From Escherichia coli (GTDB lineage: Bacteria > Pseudomonadota > Gammaproteobacteria > Enterobacterales > Enterobacteriaceae), in assembly GCF_003334385.1 (NCBI RefSeq), contig NZ_QOWN01000155.1: a stretch of DNA of 648 nucleotides; one strand, written 5' to 3'. A program made the position numbers and the translations under genes. Below, one piece after another: positions 1 to 648 of this stretch. The notes beneath the pieces are model-generated. The model saw nothing but the letters and a program-made list of their open reading frames with translations, was not told where the DNA came from and searched no databases. The first letter of the stretch is position 1. Every line of letters starts with the position of its first letter.

Positions 1-648
1 ACAGGCACGGGCACAGAACGCGCAGTATCTGAGCGAACGCCTTAAGGACCAGGCAGCCTTTTATGCCGAATCGGATGTGCAGCGTGCGGACTGGCAGAAA
101 GGGCTGCAGGAGGGGCTCAGTAACTGGGTGGACAATGCATCCGATTACGCCTCTCAGGCAGCACAGCTGGCAACGGAGGGGATTTCAGGACTGGTGAATA
201 ACATCACGGAGATGCTGAACGGAAACAAAGTGGAATGGCGCAACTGGGCCTCATCCGTACTGCAGGAAATATCAAAAGTTCTTATGAATGCGGCCATTGT
301 CAACGGAATTAAGACGGCGGCAAACGGTATGTCCGGTGCGGGAGGATTTATTGGCAGCATTGGTGACTGGCTGGGCGGTGCGGTGGCCAATGCAAAAGGC
401 GGCGTGTATACCTCGGCAAACCTGAGCGCGTACAGCAACAGTATTGTGGATACGCCCACGTACTTTGCCTTTGCAAAAGGGGCCGGGCTGATGGGGGAAG
501 CCGGACCTGAAGCCATTATGCCCCTGACCCGGGCGGCGGATGGCTCGCTGGGCGTACGCGCGGTGGGCAGTATGAACGGGAGTGCGGGTCTGGTGTATTC
601 CCCGGTCTACCACATCGCCATTCAGAATGACGGGGCCAACGGTCAGAT
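1..648 (+). CDS. Phage tail tape measure protein (lambda gpH-like), internal/C-terminal fragment; partial at both ends, codon phase begins at nt 2 (complete codons 2..646)
   Basis: Seen in sequence: the +2 frame is open across the entire window (215 codons, no stop), whereas the +1 frame hits TAA at 43-45. Codon usage is GC-rich at third positions with frequent CTG/CAG/GCG, typical of enterobacterial genes. From recalled knowledge: the translation has a QA-rich helical region with aromatics at 11-residue spacing, a Gly-rich hydrophobic segment (AANGMSGAGGFIGSIGDWLGGAVANA) and a C-proximal 'HIAIQNDGANGQ' block resembling lambda gpH's 'HVVINNDGTNGQ' region. No start or stop codon of the gene lies in the window. 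Confidence 0.88.

What the first reader, a model, noticed from the sequence alone, without database searches (positions are those of the whole stretch)
317..394. Gly-rich hydrophobic segment with glycine-zipper-like spacing (putative membrane-interacting region)
Residues 106-131 of the translation (AANGMSGAGGFIGSIGDWLGGAVANA) form a small-residue, hydrophobic stretch with GxxxG-type spacings (G114-G118, G121-G125). Lambda gpH as recalled carries a comparable segment (...GIVGSIGSAIGGAVGGGA...) at the equivalent place. Such segments in tape measure proteins are proposed to insert into the host membrane or line a channel during DNA ejection; that functional reading is inference from family knowledge.
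Basis: partly seen in the sequence, partly recalled or inferred. Interest (0 to 1): 0.45.

Follow-up and report, generated by a model that had tools for sequence, protein, structure and literature searches.

The report
Glycine-rich junction of a phage tape-measure protein
This is the glycine-rich, uncharged junction near the end of a lambda-type phage tail tape measure protein, a feature already described in phage lambda; it looks like a flexible hinge with a short amphipathic helix that may touch membranes, and it does not look like a classical membrane-spanning helix.

Summary
Bases 317-394 encode AANGMSGAGGFIGSIGDWLGGAVANA, which is 31% Gly, with GxxxG at G114 and G121. The protein is a lambda-family tail tape measure protein, 99% identical to those of Stx-converting phages. 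Lambda gpH has the recalled Gly-rich stretch at the equivalent place.

The segment is too polar for a classical TM helix (best 19-residue Kyte-Doolittle mean 0.87, with D122 in the middle). It has no strict three-point glycine zipper, and two GxxxG pairs are what its composition predicts.

Across 126 diverse homologues, aa 102-129 varies in length (13-49 aa) and sequence but keeps its character: 23% Gly, 5% charged, favourable interfacial partitioning, and alpha-helical periodicity of its hydrophobic residues. AlphaFold2 gives it no confident structure. In lambda the equivalent region is unresolved by cryo-EM, is only weakly predicted as TM, and is where gpH is cleaved into gpH* and gpHC.

The closest experimentally tested analogues are the T5 pb2 hydrophobic stretch and the glycine zipper of the T6SS effector Tde1. 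Tde1's G39xxxG43 aligns with the window's G121xxxG125, but only weakly.

My best reading is a flexible junction with an amphipathic, possibly membrane-active helix. This is a known feature of low novelty.

The parts
2..646 (+). Open reading frame fragment (215 aa) of a lambda-family tail tape measure protein. It corresponds to about aa 833-1047 of the 1080-aa protein of Stx2a_WGPS2.
   Evidence: The frame is open throughout. It is 96.8% identical in DNA and 99.1% identical in protein to Stx-phage tape measure genes. TIGR01541 scores 178.5 bits against a cutoff of 104.75. phrog_1716 gives E=2.7e-106. The gene context in the relative is given.
89..304 (+). Pfam Tape_meas_lam_C match (aa 30-101). 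This is the helical end of the tape measure rod and includes the conserved last helix (aa 85-101, SVLQEISKVLMNAAIVN).
   Evidence: PF09718 gives E=1.3e-18 over aa 30-101. AlphaFold2 predicts helices at aa 2-72 and 79-109.
305..388 (+). Glycine-rich junction (aa 102-129). It is uncharged, rich in G/A/S, and variable in length and sequence across the family.
   Evidence: Across 126 homologues the length is 13-49 aa, with G 23%, G/A/S 52% and charged residues 5%. pLDDT is below 50 for aa 108-138.
338..385 (+). Amphipathic helix-capable core (aa 113-128, AGGFIGSIGDWLGGAV). It has a hydrophobic stripe (F116, I117, I120, W123, L124, A127, V128) and both GxxxG pairs (G114-G118, G121-G125).
   Evidence: The helical hydrophobic moment has p=0.001-0.003. 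It contains the best interfacial 11-mer of the whole window, GGFIGSIGDWL at -2.76 kcal/mol. The subfamily pattern G-s-phi-G-x-phi-phi-s-s-phi-phi is 75-81% conserved in residue type at its key glycine and hydrophobic positions (G118, 120, G121, 123, 124), with small residues favoured at 125-126. There is a weak alignment to Tde1 aa 27-46.
389..562 (+). Strongly conserved C-terminal module (aa 130-187): NAKGGVY..SLSAYS..P..FAFAKGAG.MGEAGPEAIMPL.R..DG.LGV.
   Evidence: Invariant or near-invariant columns include A131, G133, P152, F155, F157, E166, G168, E170, P174, L175, R177, G181 and L183. AlphaFold2 predicts a small beta hairpin at aa 153-164.
563..604 (+). Second variable, Gly-rich, low-confidence stretch (aa 188-201).
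   Evidence: pLDDT is below 50 for aa 188-201. The columns are gappy and poorly conserved.
605..646 (+). The conserved stretch VYHIAIQNDGANGQ (aa 202-215). It aligns to lambda gpH 804-817, immediately before the tip-docking helix (lambda 818-849). That helix lies just beyond the window.
   Evidence: HMMER alignment to 8iyk_H. Lambda residues 818-842/849 are resolved together with the gpI trimer (PMC10721106 and PMC12617516).

Best explanation
The segment is the glycine-rich junction of a lambda-family tail tape measure protein. It joins the last long helix of the rod (the gpH* equivalent) to the conserved C-terminal module (the gpHC equivalent), which ends in the helix that docks on the tail-tip plug.

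In the virion it most likely acts as a flexible, poorly ordered hinge. By homology with lambda, it lies in or beside the region where the protein is cut during tail maturation.

Inside it sits a 16-residue amphipathic, Gly-rich, helix-capable core (aa 113-128). When the tip opens and the tape measure is expelled, this core is at the leading, distal end of the rod. I propose that it binds the membrane interface and self-associates through its small-residue face, helping to start the DNA conduit. I do not think it spans the bilayer as a classical hydrophobic helix.

Shown here: the protein's identity, the segment's position, its composition, its helical periodicity, the lack of confident predicted structure, and the equivalence to lambda's glycine-rich region.

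Inferred: the hinge role, cleavage in this particular phage, and any membrane contact.
For: Identity and position.

Equivalence to lambda gpH 697-722.

[quoted passage not shown] A cut at residues 710-730 would give the reported 78-79 kDa gpH*.

Hinge or junction behaviour: length varies from 13 to 49 aa with low column conservation, between two well-conserved blocks. AlphaFold2 gives pLDDT below 50 for aa 108-138.

More than a passive soluble linker:
- Charged residues are 5% in the junction against 15-24% elsewhere.
- The median best interfacial 11-mer is -2.49 kcal/mol, and 84 of 127 members reach -2 or lower, against -0.05 in a control region.
- Hydrophobic residues recur at i+3, i+4 and i+7 and are depleted at i+2, i+5 and i+6 (1.61x at k=4, 0.46x at k=2).
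- The family moment spectrum peaks at 90-100 degrees (z=7.4).
- The window's own core has p about 0.001-0.003 for its helical moment.

Analogues with experimental support:
- The T5 pb2* hydrophobic stretch lies just upstream of its cleavage site and is proposed to insert into the nanodisc (PMC10038345).
- Lambda gpH* becomes fully protease-resistant when phage eject DNA into LamB liposomes (Roessner and Ihler, as cited in PMC12617516).
- The Tde1 G39xxxG43 motif is needed for membrane permeabilisation, and its authors noted similarity to C-terminal regions of tape measure proteins (PMC10240207).
- N-Tde1's best local match to this family falls in the junction: 15.1 bits to P0010 residues 842-887, a score reached by 0 of 100 shuffles. 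In the window it aligns aa 107-128 with Tde1 27-46.
Against: There is no direct evidence for cleavage or membrane contact in this phage.

The lambda cleavage site has never been mapped to a residue (PMC12617516).

The match between the window and Tde1 is not significant on its own (E=0.054 for a single comparison). It disappears under HMMER's default composition-bias filter.

Helical periodicity of hydrophobic residues would equally fit a coiled-coil continuation packed inside the tail lumen.

In TP901-1, deleting the second hydrophobic region of the tape measure protein had little effect on infectivity. Those authors favoured a chaperone-binding role for the hydrophobic regions (PMC5099701).

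The hydropathy scale values were entered from memory of published tables, and no trained TM predictor was available.
Confidence: 0.5

Rival explanations
1. The segment is a true transmembrane glycine-zipper helix that inserts into the host membrane and oligomerises (three or six copies) to line the DNA channel.
For: The family's junctions are enriched for GxxxG (z=5.5) and GxxxGxxxG (z=6.1) relative to shuffles. Strict zipper motifs occur in 76 of 117 junctions against 62.8 +/- 4.4 expected. Lambda's version is more hydrophobic (Kyte-Doolittle mean 1.53) and carries G705xxxG709xxxG713. T5 pb2* and the Tde1 zipper are precedents. The Tde1 zipper scores only 1.22 on the same Kyte-Doolittle measure (for the R. 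rhizogenes orthologue).
Against: In the window the best 19-aa Kyte-Doolittle mean is 0.87, the Hessa sum is +8.4 and the octanol sum is +5.2. D122 sits in the middle and the longest uncharged run is 17 aa. The window has no strict zipper motif, and its glycines are not on one helical face. Some homologues have junctions of only 13 aa, too short to span a bilayer. Only 1 of 127 reaches a Kyte-Doolittle mean of 1.6. Better TM candidates lie elsewhere in the protein: aa 411-429 of the full-length relative (1.73) and lambda 113-131.
Confidence: 0.15
2. The segment is a passive flexible spacer and processing site with no membrane role. Its hydrophobic periodicity reflects packing in the narrow tail lumen as a continuation of the trimeric or hexameric coiled coil, or binding of the tail assembly chaperone during assembly.
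For: Length and sequence are variable. AlphaFold2 finds no confident structure. The region is unresolved in lambda virions and lies near the cleavage (PMC12617516). A hydrophobic region of the TP901-1 tape measure protein is dispensable for infection, and a chaperone-binding role has been suggested (PMC5099701). The RcGTA tape measure protein, which shares this module at a score below its family cutoff (74 against 220 bits), is proposed to be ejected into the periplasm, while a different protein forms the outer-membrane pore (PMC7296036).
Against: A soluble spacer would not need to exclude charged residues (5%) or keep about 30% hydrophobic and aromatic residues with favourable interfacial energy in most members. 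The ordered similarity to the membrane-active N-Tde1 falls exactly in this region.
Confidence: 0.3
3. The segment is a chance low-complexity patch of no functional significance.
For: The two GxxxG pairs are expected from composition alone. There is no repeat or RNA signal at the DNA level.
Against: The Gly clustering has p about 0.011 and the helical moment p about 0.002. The compositional character is maintained across 126 representatives taken from 50%-identity clusters, and the pattern of residue types is conserved in the subfamily.
Confidence: 0.03

Closest known systems
Glycine-rich region of phage lambda gpH (residues ~691-722), at the gpH*/gpHC boundary
   Same: It belongs to the same protein family (TIGR01541/PF09718) and aligns at the same position, directly after the conserved helix and about 120-160 residues from the C terminus. 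It has the same Gly/Ala/Ser-rich, uncharged character.
   Different: Lambda's version is more hydrophobic (Kyte-Doolittle mean 1.53 against 0.87), has no acidic residue or Trp, and contains a strict GxxxGxxxG motif. Downstream, lambda lacks the GEAGPEAIMPL module found in the window's subfamily. Cleavage is documented only for lambda.
C-terminal hydrophobic stretch of phage T5 tape measure protein pb2* (PMC10038345)
   Same: The architecture is the same: a long rod, then a hydrophobic stretch near the distal end, then a cleavage, then a C-terminal fragment whose last helix docks in the tip. It is proposed to be the first part of the tape measure protein to reach the host membrane.
   Different: In T5 the stretch is 46 residues, compatible with two TM helices. 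It is followed by a muralytic metallopeptidase motif, and the cleavage is mapped after R1127. The window has one short, weakly hydrophobic segment and no peptidase motif. Sequence homology to pb2 was not tested here.
N-terminal glycine zipper of the Agrobacterium T6SS DNase effector Tde1 (PMC10240207)
   Same: It is Gly-rich and uncharged with a W-phi-G-G core. In the best BLASTP alignment, the window's I120-G-D-W-L-G-G-A-V128 lines up with Tde1's V38-G-A-W-I-G-G-Q-V46, so G121xxxG125 matches the functionally essential G39xxxG43. The authors reported BLAST similarity of N-Tde1 to C-terminal regions of Burkholderia/Paraburkholderia tape measure proteins. A relative of the window protein (P0010) gives an order-specific match in its junction.
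   Different: Tde1 has 9 GxxxG pairs in 60 residues against 2 in the window. The window match has E=0.054 and fails HMMER's default composition-bias filter. Homology is therefore not established for this protein. Tde1 is a secreted toxin, not a virion protein.
Transmembrane glycine zippers of channel formers such as VacA (Kim et al. 2005, as cited in PMC10240207; my own knowledge for details)
   Same: Small residues recur at i and i+4, and the protein is a homo-oligomer (three or six copies) proposed to form a channel.
   Different: The defining three-point motif and TM-grade hydrophobicity are both absent from the window.

Membership tests
[quoted passage not shown] | Score above the curated cutoff of TIGR01541 | tested here: met
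   178.5 bits against a cutoff of 104.75, covering aa 2-211.
[quoted passage not shown] | Pfam Tape_meas_lam_C domain present | tested here: met
   PF09718 gives E=1.3e-18 over aa 30-101.
[quoted passage not shown] | Sequence homology to lambda gpH itself | tested here: met
   8iyk_H (gpH, 853 aa) gives E=4.9e-14, with aa 9-215 aligned to residues 607-817.
[quoted passage not shown] | The gene lies between the tail tube and chaperone genes and the gpM/L/K/I-like tip genes | tested here: met
   This was seen in the 96.6% identical relative Stx2a_WGPS2, not in the window itself. There, tail protein genes lie upstream, and minor tail proteins, a C40 peptidase and a tail assembly protein lie downstream.
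Transmembrane glycine zipper (Kim et al. 2005) | Motif (G/A/S)xxxGxxxG or GxxxGxxx(G/S/T) | tested here: not met
   No match anywhere in the window protein. The motif is present in lambda gpH and in 76 of 117 distinct homologue junctions.
Transmembrane glycine zipper (Kim et al. 2005) | The motif sits in a segment hydrophobic and long enough to span a bilayer | tested here: not met
   The best 19-aa Kyte-Doolittle mean is 0.87, the Hessa sum is +8.4 and the octanol sum is +5.2. D122 is internal and the longest uncharged run is 17 aa. The scale values were recalled from published tables, and no trained predictor was available.
Transmembrane glycine zipper (Kim et al. 2005) | Glycines aligned on one helical face | tested here: inconclusive
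   All eight Gly taken together give R=0.32, p=0.30. By the helical-wheel angles printed, G114, G118, G121 and G125 do share a 120-180 degree sector.
T5 pb2-type distal hydrophobic stretch | [quoted passage not shown] | tested here: not met
   The window has a single core of about 16-21 residues with low hydropathy.
T5 pb2-type distal hydrophobic stretch | Lies just upstream of a maturation cleavage that releases a C-terminal, tip-docked fragment | not testable with these tools
   The position is analogous, and lambda is cleaved in this region. The cleavage state of this phage's tape measure protein is unknown.
Tde1-type membrane-permeabilising glycine zipper | Significant sequence homology to N-Tde1 | tested here: inconclusive
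   For the window, BLASTP gives E=0.054 with 9/22 identities. phmmer finds no hits with default filters. With --nobias it gives 15.1 bits to relative P0010 in its junction, a score reached by 0 of 100 shuffles.
Tde1-type membrane-permeabilising glycine zipper | Membrane permeabilisation that depends on the GxxxG glycines | not testable with these tools
   This needs experiments, for example G121L/G125L mutants tested for propidium iodide uptake or liposome leakage.

The most novel reading that the evidence does not exclude
The Gly-rich junction of lambda-family tape measure proteins is a portable, membrane-permeabilising amphipathic glycine-zipper module. It is shared by descent with the N-terminus of T6SS effectors such as Tde1. 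In the phage it would be the pore-nucleating leading end of the expelled tape measure oligomer, with the maturation cleavage next to it serving to free that end.
Probability: 0.2. Interest if true: 0.55.

Novelty: already known. Interest (0 to 1): 0.2.

Why it matters
How siphophage tape measure proteins leave the tail and form the DNA conduit across the envelope is still open. For lambda, both the gpH cleavage site and the membrane-spanning parts remain unmapped (PMC12617516). This window adds no new kind of element. It is an ordinary Stx-phage or prophage tape measure gene carrying the family's known glycine-rich region.

The small added value is at the family level. The junction is variable in sequence but conserved in character: uncharged, interfacially active, and periodic like a helix. 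Its core also lines up with the experimentally essential G39xxxG43 of Tde1. That yields a concrete and inexpensive mutagenesis test (G121L/G125L, or replacing the junction with a Gly/Ser linker).

Tried and rejected
- Foldseek of the AlphaFold2 model against the PDB found nothing significant (best E=4.7). The model is extended and of low confidence.
- Tandem Repeats Finder and an Rfam scan of the window found nothing, so there is no DNA-level or RNA explanation.
- A collagen-like or period-3 reading of the GxxG run is marginal (p=0.05 for a 120-degree Gly moment), and I did not pursue it.
- The test for all glycines lying on one alpha-helical face was not significant.
- A paper search for PDB entry 25VF, the closest solved homologue by sequence, returned only unrelated papers.
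- I looked for lambda gene H mutations that bypass ManXYZ. The coevolution paper I checked gives no positions in H.
- The HK97 tape measure/PtsG paper is not held in the library.
- The first genome scan, using the primer-derived Tde1 DNA pattern, found nothing. A back-translated pattern then found one orthologue.
- I considered a pseudo-multimer AlphaFold run with concatenated copies and dropped it as too easy to over-interpret.
- I considered the antisense ORFs (154-516 and 272-613) and dismissed them. Records that annotate this stretch list only the + strand tape measure gene under the match.

Full report
**What the window is.**
The frame beginning at base 2 is open over all 648 bases and gives a 215-aa fragment. 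The DNA is 96.8% identical to tape measure genes of Stx-converting and related E. coli phages, and 97.8% identical to E. coli prophages. At the protein level the best phage match is 99.1%.

In Stx2a_WGPS2 the gene encodes a 1080-aa 'tail tape measure protein'. It sits between tail genes and gpM/L/K/I-like tip genes, and the window corresponds to about aa 833-1047. NCBIfam TIGR01541 (tape_meas_lam_C) scores 178.5 bits against a cutoff of 104.75. Pfam PF09718 covers aa 30-101, and phrog_1716 gives E=2.7e-106.

Solved relatives by sequence are 25vf_5, lambda gpH (8iyk_H, E=4.9e-14) and T1 gp38 (9l9p_B). TRF and Rfam find nothing at the DNA level.

**Checking the observation.**
Bases 317-394 translate to AANGMSGAGGFIGSIGDWLGGAVANA, which is aa 106-131. 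The segment has 8 Gly in 26 residues, against 12.6% Gly for the window. The densest 26-aa stretch has 10 Gly, reached by 1.1% of shuffles. GxxxG pairs start at G114 and G121. Lambda gpH has MVGIVGSIGSAIGGAVGGGASASGG from residue 697, aligned to the same place after the conserved helix. So the observation and the recalled lambda comparison are both correct.

The 'zipper spacing' in the window itself, however, is not special:
- Two GxxxG pairs are what the composition predicts (1.88 expected).
- The strict three-point zipper motifs are absent.
- The glycines taken together do not lie on one helical face.

**Hydropathy.**
I used Kyte-Doolittle, Wimley-White and Hessa scale values entered from memory of the published tables. 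The best 19-residue window in the segment scores a Kyte-Doolittle mean of 0.87 (conventional TM threshold 1.6). The Hessa sum is +8.4 kcal/mol and the octanol sum is +5.2. D122 interrupts the segment, and the longest run without a charged residue is 17 aa.

Lambda's equivalent scores 1.53. The full-length relative has a much better TM candidate outside the window, at aa 411-429 (1.73).

On the interfacial scale, the segment contains the most favourable 11-mer in the whole window, GGFIGSIGDWL at -2.76 kcal/mol. Its per-residue values resemble those of viral fusion peptides whose sequences I recalled from memory.

**Homologues.**
HMMER against 1.84 billion cluster representatives found 10,097 relatives at E<=1e-3. 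I aligned the 126 of the top 150 that span the region. Positions 102-129 form a junction of variable length (13-49 aa) and low column conservation. It lies between a conserved helix (aa 85-101) and a near-invariant module, NAKGGVY..SLSAYS..P..FAFAKGAG.MGEAGPEAIMPL.R..DG.LGV (aa 130-185). Only 1 of 127 sequences reaches a Kyte-Doolittle mean of 1.6 there.

The junction's character is nevertheless conserved:
- G is 23% in the junction against 11% outside, and A+S+T is 34%.
- Aliphatic residues are 20% and aromatic residues 10%.
- Charged residues are only 5%, against 15-24% elsewhere.
- The median best interfacial 11-mer is -2.49 kcal/mol, against -0.05 in a control region.

Within-sequence shuffles show that hydrophobic residues recur at i+3, i+4 and i+7 (1.23x, 1.61x and 1.46x). 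They are depleted at i+2, i+5 and i+6 (0.46x, 0.67x and 0.58x). Small residues also prefer i+4 and i+8. The mean hydrophobic-moment spectrum peaks at 90-100 degrees (z=7.4).

The window's aa 113-128 has a significant helical moment (p=0.001-0.003). Among closer relatives, the pattern G118-s-phi-G121-x-phi-phi-s-s-phi-phi is 75-81% conserved in residue type at its key glycine and hydrophobic positions. Strict zipper motifs occur in 76 of 117 distinct junctions, against 62.8 +/- 4.4 in shuffles.

The z-scores are inflated by relatedness among the sequences. The shape of the spacing profile is still clearly helical rather than beta or random.

**Structure.**
AlphaFold2 with a 34-sequence alignment gives helices at aa 2-72 and 79-109 and pLDDT below 50 for aa 108-138 and 188-201. 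It also predicts a small hairpin at aa 153-164. Mean pLDDT is 61.8. Foldseek against the PDB returned nothing useful.

In lambda, cryo-EM resolves only residues 818-842/849, docked on the gpI trimer. Residues ~690-817 are not resolved (PMC10721106 and PMC12617516). In T1, only residues 921-956 are resolved (PMC11945409).

**Literature bearing on function.**
[quoted passage not shown] It also says that TM predictors favour residues 116-140 while 691-712 is 'much less confident'. My mass calculation puts a 78-79 kDa gpH* at a cut around residues 710-730, which is in or just after the Gly-rich stretch.
- *T5.* pb2 has a 46-residue hydrophobic stretch shortly upstream of its mapped cleavage (after R1127). 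After receptor binding it is proposed to insert into the nanodisc (PMC10038345).
- *TP901-1.* Its second hydrophobic region is dispensable, and a chaperone-binding role has been suggested for such regions (PMC5099701).
- *RcGTA.* Its tape measure protein shares this module at a score below its family cutoff. It is proposed to be expelled into the periplasm while another protein forms the outer-membrane pore (PMC7296036).

**The Tde1 lead.**
PMC10240207 reports that the N-terminal glycine zipper of the T6SS effector Tde1 is BLAST-similar to C-terminal regions of Burkholderia/Paraburkholderia tape measure proteins. It also reports that G39L/G43L abolishes membrane permeabilisation and translocation.

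From a mutagenic primer in the supplement, I derived the Tde1 peptide around G39-G43 and scanned the genome collection. This recovered a 278-aa orthologue from Rhizobium rhizogenes (L003 4106-4942, minus strand).

BLASTP places its best match to the window exactly on the finding: window aa 107-128 against Tde1 27-46, with 9/22 identities and G121xxxG125 opposite G39xxxG43. The E-value is only 0.054 for that single comparison. phmmer finds nothing with its default composition-bias filter. With the filter off, it finds 15.1 bits to relative P0010 in its junction, a score reached by 0 of 100 locally composition-preserving shuffles.

The orthologue's zipper scores only 1.22 on the Kyte-Doolittle measure. 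Simple hydropathy thresholds would therefore probably also miss a glycine zipper whose A. tumefaciens counterpart is known to be membrane-active. I treat the Tde1 link as a resemblance with some order-specific support in the family. It is not established homology for this window.

**Conclusion.**
The segment is the family's known glycine-rich junction between the tape measure rod and its C-terminal, tip-docked module. The best-supported reading (confidence 0.5) is a flexible hinge and probable processing region that contains an amphipathic, Gly-rich helix-capable core. After expulsion, this core may engage the membrane interface and self-associate.

The classical TM glycine-zipper reading is weak for this sequence (0.15). 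A purely passive spacer with lumen-packing or chaperone-binding roles remains a serious rival (0.3).

This is an ordinary, already-described feature. Its value is a concrete mutagenesis hypothesis.

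Noticed in passing
window 389-562 (aa 130-187), especially 494-556 (GEAGPEAIMPLTRAADGSLGV): This is by far the most conserved block of the window. E166, G168, E170, P174, L175, R177, G181 and L183 are invariant in 34 diverse sequences. Lambda gpH lacks the motif and has EPAGIVHRGEFVFTKEA-type sequence there instead. I found no function for it in what I read.
   Followed up: partly
L001 3736-3792 (aa 411-429 of the 1080-aa relative; outside the window): GALGLVGGVPGLVMLGAAA is the strongest TM-like stretch of the full-length protein (Kyte-Doolittle mean 1.73) and is also Gly-rich. 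It parallels lambda gpH 113-131, the region the Ur-lambda paper favours as a TM candidate.
   Followed up: partly
window 326-364 (aa 109-121): Five glycines fall at an exact period of three (G109, 112, 115, 118, 121). The 120-degree Gly moment is marginal (p=0.05). No DNA tandem repeat underlies it.
   Followed up: partly
window 563-604 (aa 188-201): There is a second variable, Gly-rich, low-confidence stretch between the conserved module and the NDGxNGQ motif that precedes the docking helix.
   Followed up: no
window 154-516 and 272-613, minus strand: Two long antisense ORFs (120 and 113 aa) overlap the finding. Related records that annotate this stretch list only the + strand tape measure gene, so these are probably chance ORFs in GC-rich coding DNA.
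   Followed up: no
PDB 25vf chain 5 (612 aa): This is the closest solved homologue by sequence (E=2.8e-16). It has its own Gly-rich junction (IIGGIVGAVSGFFGSGATAGS) and the GERGPEAIMPL motif. I found no associated paper, and the modelled residues are unknown to me.
   Followed up: partly
L003 4106-4942 (minus strand), Rhizobium rhizogenes: This encodes a 278-aa Tde1 orthologue with 9 GxxxG pairs in its first 60 residues. The upstream overlapping ORF (4939-5901) is presumably its adaptor gene; I did not examine it.
   Followed up: partly
L001 8370-10648: Three transposase genes (an IS element) are inserted just downstream of the tail assembly genes in Stx2a_WGPS2, where a gpJ-like fibre gene would be expected next.
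   Followed up: no
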